From the NCBI GenBank assembly GCA_902779565.1, contig CACZCD010000001.1, positions 3,929 to 67,928 of the forward strand: DNA of 64,000 bases, in the 5' to 3' direction. The notes under the pieces were generated by a model. That model worked only from the letters and a program-made list of their open reading frames with translations, ran no database searches and was not told the DNA's origin. How positions within the stretch are numbered: the first letter of the stretch is position 1; every line of letters begins with the position of its first letter. The stretch is from an uncultured bacterium (lineage in GTDB: Bacteria > Verrucomicrobiota > Kiritimatiellia > RFP12 > UBA1067). The position numbers and the translations under genes were made by a program. Of this stretch, positions 7,428 to 23,287 are shown piece by piece.

Positions 7428-7652
7428 CGCGGGAAAGGCGCTTGTGCTTGTGTTTGTTGCCAGTCCGTGGCCGCGTCCGTTGTAGCCCGTTGCCTGTCCG
7501 TTAGGCGTCCGTATTAGCCCGTGTGAAGTCCGTAATCTGCCTGAAGCCTGTCCATGATATGTCCGTGGGTAGTCCGTGGTGTGTCCGTCTATGGGAGGGC
7601 GAGTGTCCTCGTGAAACGCCTCAAGTCCGTAATGCGTCCTTCTCGTATCCGT
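7428..7652. repeat. Array C: GTCCGT (complement of ACGGAC) hexamers at about an 11-bp period, plus a terminal block that is an inverted copy of 23224-23287
   Basis: Cores start at 7463, 7475, 7485, 7496, 7507, 7517, 7528, 7539, 7550, 7561, 7572, 7583, 7605, 7625, 7636 and 7647, with degenerate positions at 7594 and 7616. Segment 7428-7490 equals the reverse complement of 23224-23287 except for one T indel. Confidence 0.9.
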
Positions 7653-7660
7653 GTGAAGAA

Positions 7661-7697
7661 ATGCGAAAAGGCGGGCGGCCCGAAGACCGCCCGCCGC
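7661..7697 (-). terminator. Rho-independent terminator of the HU-like gene cluster
   Basis: The minus strand reads GGCGGGCGG-tcttcggg-CCGCCCGCC followed by TTTTCGCATTT, about 70 nt downstream of the stop at 7766. Confidence 0.7.
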
Positions 7698-7765
7698 CAC
7701 GGAGGGTGCGCGCGTCCACGAATGCAATCCGCTACGCAATCGCGCGCCTCCGTCTTTCTCCGCCC

Positions 7766-8833
7766 TTATATCGAGACGACAGTCACCGTCACCGGCGAAG
7801 AGGTGTGATCCGCACCGCCGCTGTGGCGCGTCACCGTGACCGAAACCTCGGAATTGTCCAGTACATCGTCGAGTCCGGTGGGCCACTCGGACTTCAAGTA
7901 CACATCGGTCATCTCGTGTACGCTTCCCCAGACCTCCGCACCGTCCTCGCGGGTGAATTTCACCGACAACTCTGAGCCGTCATACCCGAAGTTGCGCCCA
8001 GAGATCATGACTTCCTCTCCCTTGATGAGCTGCCCCGGTATGGCACCCGCAGCCGTAGAGACGATTGAGGTCACCACCGGTGTCAGATCCGGTCCGGGCG
8101 GGATCGCCGCCGCCTTGACCGTGACCTTGTGCAGAGCCGTGACGAGCGGAGCCGTGGGGTCGAGACCGTGCGAGACGAGCCGCACGTAGTATGTCCCCGC
8201 CGATACCGCCGAGGCGAGCGTGCAGATGATCCGCTGGCCGTCCTCGGTGGAGACCACCGTGATGTCTGCGACCTTGGTCAGTCCGTCCGCCGCAACGAGC
8301 GCAAGGGATTCGTCCTCGCCGTCCGGCACCGTGAGATCGATGCCCGCAATGCGGAACTCCTTCAGTCCGTCGATCAGGCGGTAGGTCTCGGACGCGAGAT
8401 CCATGACAGAACTGATCTTCACGTTGCCGTTCACCGCTTCCACCCCGAGGCTTGTCGGTGCTATGCCGGACACCGCATCGCGGATGTCCTGTGAGAGCGT
8501 CGCGCCGATGTAGAGCGTGTTGCGCGGGGCGCGGAACTCGTCGTCCTCGCTGTCGAACGCCCCGCCAATCATCGGATAGAGCGACACCGCGCCCATGTTG
8601 ATGCGTACGACATCGTCCGCGATCTTCTCGGCGGCAAACTCATAGAACGCGTTCAGGAAGTACTGCGCCGTAGCGCGGGTCATGAACGTGCCCCTGTCGA
8701 GCATCCGCTGGAGGATGTTGTCGTAGGCGAGCGAGCCAATCGGAACGGCCACGCCAAGATACGGAGCCTTCGCCGCCGTCGAAGTGCCGTTACGCACGAG
8801 ACGGTAGCCGACTTTCATTGTCTTCGTTGACAT
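7766..8833 (-). CDS. HU-like DNA-binding domain protein with C-terminal Ig-like (DUF4469-type) repeats
   Basis: 355 aa. The N-terminal about 100 aa (KVGYRLVRNG...YLGVAVPIGSLAYDNILQRM...VRINMGAVSLYPMIGGAF) follows the Bacteroidota-type HU/DUF4469 pattern. It is a paralog of the next gene. Confidence 0.7.
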   Translation of the reverse strand: MSTKTMKVGYRLVRNGTSTAAKAPYLGVAVPIGSLAYDNILQRMLDRGTFMTRATAQYFLNAFYEFAAEKIADDVVRINMGAVSLYPMIGGAFDSEDDEFRAPRNTLYIGATLSQDIRDAVSGIAPTSLGVEAVNGNVKISSVMDLASETYRLIDGLKEFRIAGIDLTVPDGEDESLALVAADGLTKVADITVVSTEDGQRIICTLASAVSAGTYYVRLVSHGLDPTAPLVTALHKVTVKAAAIPPGPDLTPVVTSIVSTAAGAIPGQLIKGEEVMISGRNFGYDGSELSVKFTREDGAEVWGSVHEMTDVYLKSEWPTGLDDVLDNSEVSVTVTRHSGGADHTSSPVTVTVVSI

Positions 8834-8850
8834 GATGTTTATCCTTTCTT

Positions 8851-9558
8851 TTATTCCGCCTTCACGACAATGTTCTTCACCTTTGCCGTTGCGGGCTTCA
8901 GCGATTCGCGCATCCCGTTGCGGCAGCTCACGACAAGCGTGTACGTGCCGGGTTCAGGCGGCTCCGCGAAGACGCAGTCGATGGTCTGGCTATCGCTCCG
9001 CTCCACTGTCGCCGTGGCGACGATGTCGCCCGTCTTGGCGTTGACGAGCCACACGCCCTCGTCCGGGTTGTCCGGCGAGATGCCGAGTTTCTGACCCTGA
9101 ATGAGCACGCGATTCGTGCCGGTGATCTCGGAAACGCGCTTCGTGACGGCGTCCATCACGGCGGCGACCGTACAGGTGAGACCGAGCGTGACGTTCTCCG
9201 GCAGCACCGCCGACATCGCACTCTTGAGCGGATCGAGCGTGCGTATCGTCGCGATGAGCTGGTGCCGTTCCGGATCGAACGCCTCATCCTCGCTCATGAA
9301 CGCGCCGCGTATCGCGAAGCCCGTGGTGAGCTGTCCGAGGTTAATGCGGTAGCCCGCAATCAGCTGAGTCATGATCTCCTCCGAGAGCGCGTCGAGGAAG
9401 TACTTCCACAGCGATGCGTCCTGCTTGGTGCGCTCCGCAAGACGCTCCGCGAGTTCATCGCGCCCGATCGTGCCGTTCGTCTGAACGTGGGCTGTATAGA
9501 CCACGCGATCCGTGATTGCGTCAGGAACACGCGTCAGGGAGAATACGATATTGTCCAT
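8851..9558 (-). CDS. HU-like DNA-binding domain / DUF4469 protein
   Basis: 235 aa. N-terminal HU-like module (VYTAHVQTNGTIGRDELAERLAERT...YRINLGQLTTGFAIRGAF). C-terminal DUF4469-like Ig module (LIQGQKLGISPDNPDEGVWLVNAKTGD...PGTYTLVV). Confidence 0.75.
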   Translation of the reverse strand: MDNIVFSLTRVPDAITDRVVYTAHVQTNGTIGRDELAERLAERTKQDASLWKYFLDALSEEIMTQLIAGYRINLGQLTTGFAIRGAFMSEDEAFDPERHQLIATIRTLDPLKSAMSAVLPENVTLGLTCTVAAVMDAVTKRVSEITGTNRVLIQGQKLGISPDNPDEGVWLVNAKTGDIVATATVERSDSQTIDCVFAEPPEPGTYTLVVSCRNGMRESLKPATAKVKNIVVKAE

Positions 9559-9571
9559 TGCATTCCCCCTT

Positions 9572-21740: not shown

Positions 21741-21792
21741 TGGCGCATCTTTCATAAGGCCGTACAATCCATCGGAAGGAGGGGAGCAAGCA

Positions 21793-22584
21793 ATGACACT
21801 ACGCGAAAGGAAGAAACTGCAACGCGACTTCTTTGAAGCCGCCGGCCCGAACACGGCCGCGTTCCGTGCACTGATTGATACGATTCCCGATGCGTGCTTC
21901 TACATGAAGGACTTGAACTGCCGCATCATGGCGCTCAACAAACGCAACTGCGAAGTGTGCAACATCAAAAACGAGCTGGATGTGGTGGGGATGCGTTCGG
22001 ACGAAGTTTTCACCCCTGCCGACGCCGAAAGCTTCATGGAACTCGACCTCGAAGTGCAAAGAACCAGAAAGCCAGCACTGAATCGCGTCGAAACGCATCC
22101 TGCCGACAAGTCACCAGGATTCACAATCGCCAGCGTCTATCCGGTCAAGAACAGATTTGGCGACATAATCGGCACCATGCGCCTGTACAGGGTATTCACG
22201 TCACACGACAATATGCCCGAATGGCATGGGCGGATGAAAGCCGTGGTAGCCTACATACAGGAACACTATGCGGAAGAAATCTCCCTTGATGAGCTGGCCA
22301 AGCTGACGGGCAGCTCGGTAAGCCAGTTCAAGCGCATCTTCACGAAGACGCTTGAGATGTCGCCCGGAAGATATATCGTCAACACCCGGATCAACGCCGC
22401 CCGCAAGCTACTGGAGACCACAGACAAGCTCGTCTCTGACATCGCGCAGGAAGTCGGCTTCTATGACCAAAGTCACATGACGCGGGCGTTCAAGACGATT
22501 CGCAGCACCACGCCCGGCGAATACCGCCGCAAGCACCGCTCCATTACGGCCAACAACTCATCCGCACCCAAACGCAAATCCTAA
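21793..22584 (+). CDS. AraC-family transcriptional regulator with an N-terminal PAS-like sensor domain
   Basis: C-terminal dual HTH (LDELAKLTGSSVSQFKRIFTK...DIAQEVGFYDQSHMTRAFK). Divergent from fic. Confidence 0.88.
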   Translation: MTLRERKKLQRDFFEAAGPNTAAFRALIDTIPDACFYMKDLNCRIMALNKRNCEVCNIKNELDVVGMRSDEVFTPADAESFMELDLEVQRTRKPALNRVETHPADKSPGFTIASVYPVKNRFGDIIGTMRLYRVFTSHDNMPEWHGRMKAVVAYIQEHYAEEISLDELAKLTGSSVSQFKRIFTKTLEMSPGRYIVNTRINAARKLLETTDKLVSDIAQEVGFYDQSHMTRAFKTIRSTTPGEYRRKHRSITANNSSAPKRKS

Positions 22585-22614
22585 CCGCCCCACCCAATCC
22601 CCCACAGCCTTCCA

Positions 22615-22700
22615 ACGGACAGAACACGGACAAGTTACGGACTTGCGACGGACAGCCGCTCCGCACACATAAACGGACTCGGGACGGACTGAAAACGGAC
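22615..22700. repeat. Array A: ACGGAC hexamers at an 11-bp period (7 copies)
   Basis: Exact ACGGAC at 22615, 22626, 22637, 22648, 22673, 22684 and 22695, with an in-phase TCGGAC at 22728 beyond a GC hairpin. Confidence 0.85.
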
Positions 22701-22936
22701 AGGCGCTCGCAGGGCGACCGCCCTGCCTCGGACAATCAGCCAGCGAAACCACACAATCCCCAACCACCCTCAACCGTCGCCCCGCACCCCGCGACCACTG
22801 CGTGGCTCGGCCTTCGACCTCGAATGATATCCCTGCGCAATCCCCCGCAGTTCCTCCAATCCACCACTCCTCCAATCACCCAATCCTCACACCCCACCCA
22901 CTCCACACCCGCAGAGCCAGCCTTGAACACCCTAAA

Positions 22937-22975
22937 CGATGTTCATGGTTTATAAACTCTGAACATCGGTTTTTT
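22937..22975 (+). terminator. Rho-independent terminator between the convergent araC-side and yqeY-side transcription units
   Basis: CGATGTTCA-(14 nt loop)-TGAACATCG followed by GTTTTTTG on the plus strand. The minus-strand tail (TTTAGGG) is weaker. Confidence 0.7.
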
Positions 22976-23015
22976 GCTGCACACGTATTTGCAACGTGAT
23001 TACCGAAGACATCCA

Positions 23016-23287
23016 ACGGGCTTCTGACGGACACACCACGGACAGGTTACGGTCTTGCCAAGGACATCTGACGGACGGCACACGGACACACTACGGACAA
23101 GTTACGGACTGGCCACGGACGCGCAACAGACTTCATACGGGCTTAGAACGGACGAGCCACGGACAAAATACGGGCGGAACACGGACTAAAACGGACTTCT
23201 GATGGACAGCATACGGACGGATCACGGGCTACAAACGGACGCGGCCACGGACTGGCAACAAACACAAGCACAAGCGCCTTTCCCGCG
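23016..23287. repeat. Array B: 22 ACGGAC-type hexamers at an 11-bp period, plus a terminal block inverted relative to 7428-7490
   Basis: Core starts run from 23016 to 23247. 19 of the 21 intervals are exactly 11 bp. 14 cores are exact ACGGAC and 8 are single-substitution variants. The spacers are not conserved. Confidence 0.95.

What the first reader, a model, noticed from the sequence alone, without database searches (positions are those of the whole stretch)
7428..23287. 15.86-kb accessory segment bracketed by the inverted arrays, sitting exactly between the yqeY stop and the rpmE promoter
Outside the brackets are housekeeping genes on the same strand: yqeY ends at 23309, and the rpmE promoter lies at 7392-7420. 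Inside is a mixed cargo. It includes a sigma-like regulator with iterons, two HU-like/DUF4469 proteins, and a glycyl radical enzyme plus its activase. It also includes a CAZyme cassette, a low-GC Fic gene and an AraC regulator. The placement is strictly intergenic, 22 bp after one gene's stop and 8 bp before the next promoter. Together with the inverted terminal structure, this suggests an inserted island or an unusually large TIR-bounded or invertible element. No integrase, transposase, relaxase or partition ATPase is present in the window, and I found no target-site duplication. If the segment is mobile, the mechanism is therefore not a recognised one or acts in trans.
Basis: inference. Interest (0 to 1): 0.8.

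Follow-up and report, generated by a model that had tools for sequence, protein, structure and literature searches.

The report
Repeat-capped gene island beside rpmE
A 15.9-kb block of accessory genes was inserted, to the base, between two housekeeping genes of an uncultured rumen bacterium (class Kiritimatiellae); its ends are perfect 50-54-base mirror-image sequences backed by long rows of an 11-base-spaced ACGGAC motif, and it carries no gene for the enzyme that must have moved it.

Summary
A perfect 54-nt inverted repeat (7428-7481 / 23234-23287) caps two opposed arrays of ACGGAC hexamers with an 11-bp period. These are the only such arrays in the window (29 matches, 0.5 expected).

Four contigs from 90-95% identical relatives carry yqeY directly next to rpmE. 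Deleting 7432-23287 and keeping one CGCG restores their spacer colinearly. The segment is therefore a precise 15,856-bp insertion.

No recombinase is found in the island or anywhere in the 64-kb window. Composition is mosaic: the left two-thirds is host-like and the GRE-Fic-AraC third is atypical.

My best reading (about 0.42) is a non-autonomous transposon-like element moved in trans, with the arrays as phased protein-binding sites. Three things weaken it:
- The terminal sequence was found at no second site.
- Other strains hold different cargo at the same breakpoint without arrays.
- Opposed short-repeat arrays are common intergenic furniture in these bacteria.

The island's left end is a conserved, multi-copy module: sigma-like gene with iterons, a small lipoprotein and two HU-Ig genes.

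The parts
7392..7420 (-). rpmE promoter TTGCGC-N17-TATCAT, 7 nt outside the insertion and left intact
   Evidence: Read directly. It is identical in all haplotypes.
7428..7431 (.). CGCG at the rpmE-side junction. It is either the target copy or the outermost 4 nt of the inverted repeat.
   Evidence: Empty sites carry a single CGCG (CGTG in L009) at this point.
7432..7481 (.). Left terminal inverted repeat (50 nt, or 54 with CGCG). The outer ~31 nt are unique sequence (GGAAAGGCGCTTGTGCTTGTGTTTGTTGCCA) and the rest are the first two array units.
   Evidence: 100% complementary to 23234-23283. These are the only two copies in the window. Read inward it looks like a weak hairpin followed by a T-rich tail.
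7463..7641 (-). Left array: about 14 ACGGAC units (some degenerate) at an 11-nt period, pointing outward
7665..7698 (-). G+C-rich terminator hairpin of the HU355 gene (GGCGGGCGGTCTTCGGGCCGCCCGCC)
   Evidence: Read directly. The same hairpin follows the homologous gene in L180-L182.
7766..8833 (-). HU355: HU-DNA_bdg N-terminal region followed by two beta-sandwich domains, the first (about 139-240) conserved and the second (from about residue 250) variable. It is the last gene of the conserved module.
   Evidence: Pfam E 7.5e-13. More than 120 homologues, mostly on 1-2 kb contigs, whose alignments to the query cover only about 70% of it; the consensus is lost after about residue 250. AlphaFold gives two confident beta domains (139-240 and 253-353) and a low-confidence N-terminus.
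8851..9558 (-). HU235: HU-DNA_bdg / HU-HIG plus DUF4469 (Ig-like)
9572..9763 (-). Small 63-aa putative lipoprotein (MKSKLKNK...LAGC)
   Evidence: ORF translation. A 63-94 aa gene is called at the same position in the other module copies.
9877..10374 (-). u165: 165-aa protein with a sigma-70 region-4-like helix-turn-helix
   Evidence: NCBIfam sigma70-ECF E 2.3e-3, which is weak. Its 90%-identity cluster has 85 members, mostly on short contigs.
10473..10640 (.). Iteron/operator region upstream of u165: about 5 copies of GCAGGGTGCGA, two of them as 11-bp-stem palindromes
   Evidence: (D8). Analogous but different iterons precede the sigma-like gene in L191 and L195.
10804..11634 (-). Glycyl-radical-enzyme activase (radical SAM)
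   Evidence: TIGR02494 E 3.9e-66.
11637..11682 (-). 46-nt remnant of a GRE 3' end, 83% identical to 17819-17864
   Evidence: D5. It implies that the block 11.7-17.8 kb entered between the GRE gene and its activase.
11718..17685 (-). CAZyme cassette: GH28 protein of 1115 aa, FGE-sulfatase-like protein of 446 aa, a 65-aa ORF, and a 355-aa protein with a weak beta-N-acetylhexosaminidase (glycoside-hydrolase-like) match
17821..20229 (-). Glycyl radical enzyme (PFL-like plus Gly_radical domains)
20512..21654 (-). Fic-domain protein in the lowest-GC part of the island
21793..22584 (+). PAS-AraC regulator
22615..22700 (+). Inner right array: 7 ACGGAC units
22936..22975 (+). Terminator-like hairpin plus T run between the two right-hand arrays
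   Evidence: Read directly. The hairpin is kept through sequence changes in strain L133.
23016..23252 (+). Main right array: 22 ACGGAC units in almost perfect 11-nt register, pointing outward
   Evidence: It is essentially identical (one 1-nt indel) in strain L133, while the sequence next to it has diverged.
23234..23283 (.). Right terminal inverted repeat
23284..23287 (.). CGCG at the yqeY-side junction, 21 nt from the yqeY stop codon

Best explanation
The segment 7432-23287 is a single non-autonomous, transposon-like insertion in the chromosome of a rumen Kiritimatiellae bacterium.

Shown:
- It entered the 40-nt yqeY-rpmE spacer precisely.
- It ends in perfect 50-nt terminal inverted repeats.
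- CGCG flanks it on both sides, whereas the empty site has one copy.
- It encodes no recombinase.

Inferred:
- A transposase encoded elsewhere made a 4-nt staggered cut at CGCG and joined the two identical termini.
- The outward-pointing, 11-bp-phased ACGGAC arrays just inside the termini are subterminal multi-site binding platforms for that enzyme or for an architectural partner. They line up many protein copies on one face of the helix and so pair the two ends.
- The arrays lie between the island's own terminators and weak inward-facing hairpins in the termini. They are probably not transcribed and so most likely act as DNA.

The cargo is a mosaic built in steps. It combines a conserved module (sigma-like gene with iterons, small lipoprotein, two HU-Ig genes), a GRE-activase pair split by a pectin/sulfated-glycan CAZyme cassette, and a lower-GC Fic/AraC part.
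For: - Empty sites exist. L009-L012 carry SASA-yqeY-rpmE-prfA with a 53-nt gap between the called genes.
- blastn homology of all relatives stops at window positions 7430-7433 and resumes at 23289-23294.
- The window with 7432-23287 deleted aligns colinearly with the four empty sites, leaving one CGCG.
- The terminal repeat is 54/54 perfect, and its two copies are the only ones in the window.
- The arrays are far above chance and occur only at the two ends. The hexamer is conserved, the spacers are random and the register is a strict 11 nt. This points to selection on a binding site rather than recent slippage.
- The arrays and terminus are essentially identical (one 1-nt indel) in a second strain from another study, while neighbouring non-coding sequence diverged.
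- Homologous arrays, with partly shared spacers, follow a 96.8% identical copy of the module in a different island and locus, L180-L182.
- A further homologous array with a different continuation is implied by the spurious ORF P0153.
- No recombinase is found in the island or window.
- Composition is partly foreign. Tetranucleotide correlation is 0.75-0.79 for 18-24 kb against 0.951 +/- 0.022 for the flanks.
- Precedent for cargo moved by non-coding inverted-repeat ends with the transposase supplied in trans: MITE-integron-MITE structures and IMUs (PMC3575428).
Against: - The terminal sequence was found at no second site. There were 0 exact hits to a 21-mer in the JGI metagenome contigs and no similar sequence in about 200 fetched loci.
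- Wherever it was seen, the island sits at the same locus (L133, L002).
- No candidate transposase was identified anywhere.
- CGCG is palindromic. It cannot be told apart from the last 4 nt of the repeat, so the target duplication is not proven.
- The same rpmE-side breakpoint is used by at least three other haplotypes that have no arrays. The site itself may therefore drive the event.
- Identity drops abruptly from 54/54 to array-level similarity. That is unusual for transposon ends.
- Other copies of the module are followed by different arrays or none, and show no long terminal repeats.
- In Lentisphaeria, ACGGAC arrays are dispersed intergenic repeats that bracket ordinary genes by chance, with no transposase nearby.
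Confidence: 0.42

Rival explanations
1. This is a hot-spot island with functional boundary arrays. The point just upstream of the rpmE promoter is a recurrent recombination or rearrangement site where different accessory clusters are gained and swapped. The ACGGAC arrays are not transposon ends. They are one instance of the opposed short-repeat arrays that fill intergenic DNA in these PVC-group bacteria (Kiritimatiellae and Lentisphaeria), acting as protein-binding, insulating or terminating elements. They came in with the conserved sigma-like/HU-Ig module and the AraC end. The perfect terminal repeat then reflects a palindromic array unit into whose centre cargo accumulated, or gene conversion between the two ends.
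For: - At least five haplotypes share the same rpmE-side breakpoint within 2-3 nt: empty, this island, L004/L007 (CAZyme genes plus PIN/RelB), L005/6/8/13 (rhamnosidase plus ATPase_2), and L194 (SASA directly next to rpmE, no yqeY). None of the other islands has arrays.
- The module occurs next to many kinds of accessory genes and is usually followed by arrays of varying sequence, often as opposed pairs.
- Short [-array]-centre-[+array] units exist without cargo in L180 and in rumen Bacteroidales MAGs.
- In one Lentisphaeria MAG (STF1_46) a ~300-nt array unit is dispersed upstream of genes; in a second Lentisphaeria MAG arrays occur on dozens of contigs and bracket ordinary genes.
- Both main arrays lie in terminator-bounded, probably untranscribed DNA.
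- The cargo was assembled in steps, as the GRE 3' remnant shows (D5).
Against: - Empty sites lack any array, so the arrays and cargo arrived together or in quick succession.
- A perfect 50-54-nt terminal repeat with matching CGCG junctions is what a cut-and-paste enzyme leaves, not what homologous replacement leaves.
- No mechanism is known that would place cargo in the centre of a palindromic unit.
- The far side of the other islands (yqeY or not) could not be seen.
Confidence: 0.3
2. The island integrated by a trans-acting site-specific recombinase. It existed as a circle whose attachment site was a long perfect palindrome (right end-CG/CGCG-left end). A serine or tyrosine recombinase encoded elsewhere exchanged strands at the central CGCG with the CGCG upstream of rpmE. 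The arrays serve as arm-type or accessory binding sites, which in integrated elements end up inverted at the two ends.
For: - The only direct repeat at the junctions is the short CGCG core.
- The half-sites at the two ends are inverted copies of each other, as for the P and P' half-sites of serine-integrase attP. This comparison is from my own knowledge of phiC31/Bxb1-type systems.
- Several haplotypes share the same crossover point.
- A large serine recombinase gene lies about 1.3 kb from the arrays in L180.
Against: - The rpmE-upstream target shows no dyad symmetry or resemblance to the element ends.
- A 100-nt perfectly palindromic attP is unprecedented.
- The recombinase in L180 belongs to a prophage next to tRNA-Val.
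- The other islands at this site have no matching half-sites.
Confidence: 0.1
3. The segment is an invertible element. The 54-nt perfect inverted repeats are crossover sites for an invertase or for RecA, and flipping the 15.8-kb block has regulatory value.
For: Perfect identity confined to 54 nt is what repeated crossover or gene conversion would maintain.
Against: - Inversion does not explain the absence of both repeat copies from the empty sites.
- The right-hand junction seen in an independent assembly (L133) has the AraC side against yqeY, as in the window; no assembly shows the flipped order.
- Nearly all genes are co-oriented with the flanks.
- Flipping would move no promoter relative to any gene.
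- No invertase is present in the window.
Confidence: 0.05
4. The structure is an assembly artefact: a chimeric join of unrelated contigs through a shared repeat.
For: The source is a short-read metagenome scaffold. Several small contigs break exactly at the repeat (L002, L003).
Against: - The right junction is reproduced in an independent study and assembly (L133) and in a Logan unitig (L002).
- The left junction is present in three contigs in ENA and NCBI, up to 91.9 kb long.
- Excising the segment restores the ancestral spacer to the base, which a misjoin would not do.
Confidence: 0.03

Closest known systems
Non-autonomous composite elements moved in trans (MITE-integron-MITE structures, 288-bp Integron Mobilization Units)
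   Same: Cargo with no transposase is bounded by non-coding inverted-repeat ends, inserted precisely and flanked by a short duplication. Movement needs a transposase supplied in trans (PMC3575428).
   Different: Those have two complete MITE copies, each with its own pair of ends. Here the terminal sequence occurs only once at each outer end, so this is one element rather than MITE-cargo-MITE. The ends here are built from phased hexamer arrays. No multi-site distribution or cognate transposase is known.
Foldback-type eukaryotic transposons (Drosophila Foldback, Galileo)
   Same: They have long terminal inverted repeats that are internally repetitive, with arrays of unequal length at the two ends and a variable middle (PMC3573991, listed; further detail is from my own knowledge).
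   Different: Those are eukaryotic. Galileo encodes a P-type transposase and has 7-bp duplications. There is no evidence of homology, only structural analogy.
Bacterial transposons with multiple subterminal transposase-binding sites (Tn7/TnsB, Mu/MuA, IS21, Tn402/Tn5053)
   Same: Repeated protein-binding sites lie inside each end, oriented toward the termini. This is from my own knowledge.
   Different: Those have 2-4 sites of about 20 bp per end, characteristic TG...CA termini, 5-bp (or 4-8-bp) duplications, and encode their own transposase. Here there are 14 and 29 hexamer sites at an 11-bp period, the terminus is GGAAAGG, and there is no transposase.
Flexible genomic islands at conserved hot spots
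   Same: Different strains carry different accessory clusters at one locus with identical boundaries. Cargo is niche-adaptive (CAZymes, GRE) and composition is partly atypical.
   Different: Such islands are not normally bounded by perfect terminal inverted repeats with a matching short junction repeat.
Iteron centromeres and Pho-box-type regulator arrays (R1 parC 11-bp iterons; OmpR/PhoB-family 6+5-nt direct repeats)
   Same: Direct repeats at an 11-bp period with a conserved core and free spacers suggest cooperative binding along one face of the DNA. This is from my own knowledge.
   Different: There is no partition ATPase or adaptor here. The arrays are up to 22 units long, sit at the ends of a chromosomal insertion, and have no known binding protein.
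HU-HIG proteins of Bacteroidetes (Pfam PF18291/PF14848, PDB 4FMR)
   Same: An HU-like domain is fused to Ig-like domains. The genes occur in adjacent pairs, show lineage-specific expansion and diverge fast (PMC5499826). Here there are Pfam hits, more than 120 close homologues with variable C-termini, and a weak profile hit to 4FMR (E 0.08).
   Different: The host here is a Kiritimatiellae bacterium. The genes also have a conserved neighbourhood (sigma-like gene with iterons plus a small lipoprotein), whereas the Bacteroidetes genes are reported to lack conserved linkage.

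Membership tests
Cut-and-paste TIR transposon (non-autonomous) | Terminal inverted repeats at the exact ends of the inserted DNA | tested here: met
   The repeat is 54/54 nt, or 50 nt if CGCG is counted as target. 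Homology with relatives ends at its outer base.
Cut-and-paste TIR transposon (non-autonomous) | Target-site duplication of fixed length | tested here: inconclusive
   CGCG is at both junctions and present once in the empty sites. It is palindromic, so it may be part of the repeat. Only one insertion is available.
Cut-and-paste TIR transposon (non-autonomous) | Empty (unoccupied) sites in relatives | tested here: met
   L009-L012.
Cut-and-paste TIR transposon (non-autonomous) | Copies with the same ends at different genomic sites | tested here: not met
   There were 0 hits to the terminal 21-mer in JGI metagenome contigs and none in the fetched loci. The ENA assemblies, which hold this lineage, could not be scanned by DNA. 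Homologous arrays with different termini do exist.
Cut-and-paste TIR transposon (non-autonomous) | A cognate transposase somewhere in the genome with matching ends | not testable with these tools
   Only this one scaffold of the genome was readable. No transposase is present in the 64-kb window.
MITE-cargo-MITE composite | Two complete copies of a short element, each with both of its own ends | tested here: not met
   The terminal 16-mer, allowing up to 3 mismatches, occurs only at the two outer ends.
Integrase-mediated island (tyrosine or serine recombinase) | Recombinase gene in or beside the island | tested here: not met
   Pfam, NCBIfam and PHROGs scans of the island ORFs of about 65 aa or more that were tested found none, and Pfam found none among the other window ORFs.
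Integrase-mediated island (tyrosine or serine recombinase) | Direct repeats (att core) at both junctions, often at a tRNA gene | tested here: inconclusive
   Only CGCG (4 nt) is repeated. The window has no tRNA gene.
Invertible DNA segment | Both orientations present in a population, with an invertase nearby | not testable with these tools
   No reads were available. The one independent junction seen (L133) matches the window's orientation. No invertase is in the window.
Genomic island (general sense) | Present or absent among close relatives, accessory cargo, atypical composition | tested here: met
   presence/absence; cargo; the right-hand third is atypical, the rest near host-like.
HU-HIG family (for the two HU-like genes) | HU-like domain with C-terminal Ig-like domain(s), paired genes, rapid divergence | tested here: met
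   PF14848 E 7.5e-13 and 4.6e-11, PF18291 and DUF4469. Two confident beta-sandwich domains are predicted, though the HU part is modelled poorly. C-termini are variable.
Type II partition centromere (parC-like) | Adjacent ParM-type ATPase and ParR-type adaptor genes | tested here: not met
   There are no such domains in the island or window.

The most novel reading that the evidence does not exclude
Rumen Kiritimatiellae, and perhaps PVC-group bacteria more widely, harbour an undescribed class of recombinase-less, array-ended islands. In this reading the conserved multi-copy module (iterons plus a sigma-like DNA-binding protein, a small lipoprotein, and two HU-Ig proteins with a hypervariable C-terminus) and the 11-bp-phased hexamer arrays together form the element's own machinery. 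That machinery would handle end recognition, end pairing, and integration or maintenance at promoter-proximal sites. It would be a mobility or island-maintenance system not based on any known transposase or integrase family.
Probability: 0.12. Interest if true: 0.85.

Novelty: new variant of a known kind. Interest (0 to 1): 0.55.

Why it matters
It gives a clean, base-resolved example of how an uncultured rumen glycan degrader gains a whole catabolic cluster: a pectin/sulfated-glycan CAZyme set plus a glycyl radical enzyme. It arrives with an end architecture not described for bacterial mobile DNA, namely perfect termini backed by dozens of phased hexamer sites, and with no mobility gene.

If the ends are recognised in trans, a new transposase-end pairing waits to be found. 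If they are not, the arrays and the conserved sigma-like/HU-Ig module point to a DNA-organising or insulating system that marks accessory DNA in these bacteria.

Either way, the locus offers testable handles:
- a defined 31-nt terminus,
- a defined hexamer,
- four small candidate DNA-binding proteins,
- natural empty sites.

Tried and rejected
- **Terminal sequence elsewhere.** An exact 21-mer of the terminus gave 0 hits in JGI metagenome contigs. blastn-short of the 54-nt and 36-nt termini against all fetched loci gave only chance 11-15-mers.
- **rpmE-promoter scan of JGI contigs.** This returned one locus (L194), a fifth haplotype without yqeY.
- **Spurious-ORF trick.** I translated across the array and terminus and searched the protein collection. 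It returned one protein (P0153) from a homologous array with a different continuation. Its DNA could not be fetched because the look-ups were exhausted.
- **MITE-cargo-MITE.** Rejected because there are no inner copies of the terminus.
- **Long inverted repeats around other copies of the module (L189-L193).** None were found.
- **A transposase linked to the arrays in Lentisphaeria.** All-against-all comparison of 343 ORFs near arrays found no multi-copy protein. Segments bracketed by inverted arrays there hold ordinary genes: exosortase, RecD-like helicase, MoxR, LacI plus MrfA, RhuM. That bracketing looks coincidental.
- **Island proteins near Lentisphaeria arrays.** None.
- **HU355 on plasmids or phages.** No match.
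- **RNA explanations.** No Rfam family and no tRNA in the window.
- **A hidden recombinase in the unannotated 355-aa ORF.** It has only a weak beta-N-acetylhexosaminidase similarity.
- **Structure of HU355.** Only the two beta domains are confident and the HU part is not, so I ran no fold search.
- **Viral contigs with the array pattern.** 44 loci, which I did not examine further because they are compositionally heterogeneous.
- **A more distant species (prfA variant P0128).** It has different synteny on both sides of rpmE-prfA, so it is uninformative for the hot-spot question.

Full report
**What is there**

The window is a piece of the rumen-metagenome scaffold ERZ28614400 STEW19-1_SAMEA5383922 scaffold_761. 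Loci L001, L131 and L132 are 100% identical to it. The organism is an uncultured Kiritimatiellae bacterium. Two results support this: the 90%-identity cluster of its prfA holds proteins named 'Kiritimatiellae bacterium', and so does a homologue of one island protein.

The reported bracket is real.
- Arms 7428-7481 and 23234-23287 are 54 nt long and perfectly complementary. Further in, similarity falls to 71-76%.
- Just inside each arm are rows of the hexamer ACGGAC with an 11-nt period. They lie on the minus strand at the left (7463-7641, about 14 units) and on the plus strand at the right (22615-22700 with 7 units, and 23016-23252 with 22 units). Both sets therefore point outward.
- ACGGAC-N5-ACGGAC with up to 1 mismatch occurs 29 times against 0.5 expected, and nowhere else in the 64 kb.
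- In 63 units from the window arrays and the L180 array pooled, the hexamer is almost invariant while the 5-nt spacers carry close to no information. The 22-unit array keeps an 11-nt register with only one 10 and one 12. That pattern indicates selection on a phased binding site, not recent slippage.

**It is a precise insertion**

I looked up contigs that encode exactly the same rpmE product. This returned four contigs from relatives (L009-L012, 90-98% nucleotide identity) in which SASA-yqeY-rpmE-prfA are directly adjacent.
- blastn homology of all relatives ends at window positions 7430-7433 and resumes at 23289-23294.
- Removing 7432-23287 (15,856 bp) while keeping one CGCG gives a sequence that aligns colinearly with the four empty sites.
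- CGCG is therefore present at both junctions and once in the empty site. It could be a 4-bp palindromic target duplication concealed inside the 54-nt repeat, which would leave 50-nt terminal repeats. It could equally be the outermost bases of the repeat. One insertion cannot decide this.
- A second strain from an independent study (L133, with a 501-aa rather than a 519-aa SASA) has the same right junction. Its arrays and terminus are essentially identical (one 1-nt indel), while the non-coding stretch between the two right-hand arrays has diverged, with the terminator hairpin preserved.
- Together with the Logan unitig L002, and with the left junction present in three ENA/NCBI contigs, this makes an assembly artefact very unlikely.

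**Cargo and composition**

Every sizeable ORF was scanned. From left to right the island holds:
- HU355, with an HU-DNA_bdg N-terminus. AlphaFold gives two confident beta-sandwich domains and a poorly modelled HU part.
- HU235, with HU-DNA_bdg/HU-HIG plus DUF4469.
- A 63-aa putative lipoprotein.
- u165, with only a weak sigma-70 region-4 match, preceded by about five GCAGGGTGCGA iterons, two of them palindromic.
- A GRE activase.
- A GH28 protein of 1115 aa, an FGE-sulfatase-like protein, and a 355-aa protein with a weak beta-N-acetylhexosaminidase (glycoside-hydrolase-like) match.
- The GRE itself.
- A Fic protein and a PAS-AraC regulator.

A 46-nt copy of the GRE 3' end sits directly upstream of the activase gene (11637-11682 against 17819-17864, 83% identical). 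The CAZyme block was therefore inserted between a once-adjacent GRE-activase pair, and the cargo is a stepwise mosaic.

Tetranucleotide correlation with the flanks is 0.92-0.94 for 8-18 kb, against 0.951 +/- 0.022 for flank windows. It drops to 0.75-0.79 (GC 0.54) over GRE-Fic-AraC. Composition is thus distinguishable, but only clearly so for the right-hand third.

No integrase, transposase, relaxase or partition protein is present in the island or in any other large ORF of the window. The rest of the window holds rpoC, dnaG, a two-component system, an alpha-2-macroglobulin and other chromosomal genes (and precomputed Pfam).

**The site is a hot spot**

Other relatives with the same downstream genes (prfA, U32 peptidase, 5'-nucleotidase; 90-93% identical) carry different DNA upstream of rpmE.
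- L004/L007 carry a CAZyme/uronate cluster ending in PIN/RelB.
- L005/6/8/13 carry a rhamnosidase cluster ending in an ATPase_2 gene.
- L194 has SASA directly next to the rpmE promoter, with no yqeY.

All of them lose homology within 2-3 nt of the same point, (C)GCG|CACCCTCTTGCGCGG, which is 7 nt upstream of the -35 hexamer. None has ACGGAC arrays. Either something targets this point, or selection on the essential promoter trims every rearrangement to it. I could not see the far ends of those islands.

**The left end is a conserved, multi-copy module**

HU355 has more than 120 close homologues, most on 1-2 kb contigs. Their alignments to the query cover only about 70% of it, and the consensus of 26 aligned homologues is lost after about residue 250. 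The 90% cluster of u165 has 85 members, also mostly on short contigs.

Wherever longer contigs were available, the same gene string appears as the last genes before housekeeping genes: iterons, a sigma-like gene, a 63-94-aa gene, HU235, then an HU35x gene. It sits next to very different accessory cargo:
- GH20/DUF6259 genes (L180-L182),
- a rhamnosidase plus AraC (L183/184),
- exopolysaccharide genes (L191),
- restriction-modification and GmrSD genes (L193),
- AAA ATPases (L189, L195).

The L180 copy is 96.8% identical to window 8088-10644. That is higher than the identity of housekeeping genes between these strains. The similarity stops inside HU355, where the variable C-terminus begins.

In L180-L182 the module is followed by the same terminator hairpin and by homologous ACGGAC arrays. 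After these come a short [-GTTCGT array]-centre-[+ACGGAC array] unit, a tRNA-Val gene and an unrelated prophage with a large serine recombinase. More divergent module copies are followed by other short-period arrays or by none: a GGTTAGT type, opposed GAAGTTTGA arrays, and opposed GAGGGTT/AACCCTC arrays. They have no long terminal repeats.

These proteins fit the HU-HIG description of Burroughs et al.: paired genes, lineage-specific expansion, fast divergence, and a proposed role in conflicts with invasive DNA (PMC5499826). That description was made for Bacteroidetes and reported no conserved neighbourhood.

**The arrays elsewhere**

A four-unit pattern scan of one genome per species was truncated at 117 stretches. 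It is dominated by two Lentisphaeria MAGs with dozens of arrays each.
- In one of them, a ~300-nt unit ([+array]-69-nt centre-[-array] with its own flanking sequence) is dispersed upstream of genes in either orientation. The number of array units varies between copies.
- In the other MAG, segments bracketed by inverted arrays hold ordinary genes.
- No multi-copy protein accompanies the arrays in either MAG.
- Small [-array]-centre-[+array] units with related GTCCGT repeats also occur in rumen Bacteroidales MAGs.

Opposed arrays of this hexamer are therefore a wider, unexplained kind of intergenic repeat. Being bracketed by them is not in itself proof of mobility.

**Weighing the explanations**

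What is specific to this window is the combination of four features: an exact insertion, perfect unique-sequence termini found only at the two outer ends, a matching CGCG at both junctions, and no recombinase. That combination is what a cut-and-paste enzyme acting in trans would leave. The closest documented kind is cargo moved by non-coding inverted-repeat ends, such as MITE-integron-MITE structures and IMUs (PMC3575428). The array-built ends resemble Foldback/Galileo-type termini only by analogy (PMC3573991).

I therefore rank a non-autonomous transposon-like element first, at about 0.42, with the arrays as phased subterminal binding sites. The main rival, at about 0.30, is that the locus is a recombination hot spot and the arrays are boundary or insulator elements tied to the module. 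This rival explains the shared breakpoint and the commonness of arrays, but not the perfect termini. The remaining rivals rank as follows:
- integration through a palindromic attachment site by a recombinase encoded elsewhere, about 0.10;
- an invertible segment, about 0.05;
- an assembly artefact, about 0.03.

The chief weakness of the leading idea is that the terminus was found at no second site. However, the ENA assemblies that hold this lineage could not be searched by DNA.

**Verdict**

The mechanism remains open. I class the feature as a new variant of a known kind (a non-autonomous inverted-repeat-bounded island) with an unusual end architecture. Interest is moderate to fairly high.

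Noticed in passing
window 7766-10640; L180-L195: There is a conserved, apparently multi-copy gene module in rumen Kiritimatiellae: locus-specific iterons, a sigma-like 147-187-aa gene, a 63-94-aa lipoprotein-like gene, HU235 (DUF4469), and an HU35x gene with a hypervariable C-terminal Ig-like domain. It sits at the edge of very different accessory clusters (CAZymes, EPS genes, restriction-modification, AAA ATPases). One copy in another locus is 96.8% identical to the window's, and the similarity stops inside the last gene.
   Followed up: partly
window 11637-11682 and 17819-17864: A 46-nt remnant of the glycyl-radical-enzyme 3' end (83% identical) lies directly upstream of the activase gene. 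The GH28/FGE-sulfatase/355-aa-ORF block (about 6.1 kb) was therefore inserted between a formerly adjacent GRE-activase pair.
   Followed up: no
window 4606-4774 and 25360-25430 (minus strand): Two unrelated genes, a 5'-nucleotidase and the SASA esterase, have the same kind of leader. On the coding strand, several copies of an 8-nt (A)AGGTGGAA repeat are followed by 7-nt ATCAACT repeats and then the start codon. This may be a shared regulatory or translational leader.
   Followed up: no
window 35735-35837 and 44008-44127: Further short-period arrays (AGGTTGAA / AACTCTTC, and GAGGGTT / CCTCTTC) fall inside long ORFs: the alpha-2-macroglobulin-like 1968-aa ORF and the dnaG ORF. Either those ORF calls run through intergenic DNA or the arrays are coding.
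   Followed up: no
rpmE upstream, window 7402-7431; L004-L013, L194: At least five different arrangements in 90-95% identical relatives break within 2-3 nt of the same point, 7 nt upstream of the rpmE -35 hexamer. That point is next to a CCCTC/GAGGG hairpin overlapping the promoter. One haplotype (L194) lacks yqeY altogether.
   Followed up: partly
L014-L130 (Lentisphaeria MAGs JAQVUB01 and JAPXLT01), e.g. L069 813-1050 and 2270-2577: In JAQVUB01 (STF1_46) a ~300-nt dispersed unit ([+ACGGAC array]-69-nt centre-[-array], with conserved flanks and a variable number of 11-nt units) sits upstream of genes in either orientation. In L069 two inverted copies flank a RhuM-family gene. JAPXLT01 carries ACGGAC arrays on dozens of contigs. 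No transposase is associated in either MAG.
   Followed up: partly
L058, L059, L105, L113, L124 (rumen Bacteroidales MAGs): Small intergenic palindromic units are made of 4-5 copies of an 11-nt AAGTCCGTTNC-type repeat facing 2-3 inverted copies across a 25-40-nt centre. The same hexamer and period thus appear in another phylum from the same habitat.
   Followed up: no
window 7427-7456 (+) and 23287-23259 (-): Read inward, each terminal repeat forms a small GCGC...GCGC hairpin followed by a T-rich tract (TTGTGCTTGTGTTTGTT). This is terminator-like and could stop read-through from yqeY into the island. Both main arrays thus lie between terminators.
   Followed up: no
L180 9460-9550 and 10202-11944: A tRNA-Val gene lies beside a prophage-like region (large serine recombinase, DUF2924, PDDEXK, AAA_24), a few hundred bases from the arrays that end the L180 island. 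They are probably independent neighbours.
   Followed up: no
window 54000-58000: A second low-GC, compositionally atypical stretch (GC 0.53-0.56, tetranucleotide r 0.86) holds an acyl-ACP thioesterase gene and a 607-aa ORF with no Pfam match.
   Followed up: no
viral contigs L136-L179: 44 IMG/VR contigs contain at least four ACGGAC units at an 11-nt period, some with 9-13 units at a contig end (L140, L164, L169). GC content ranges from 0.27 to 0.69, so they are probably heterogeneous.
   Followed up: no
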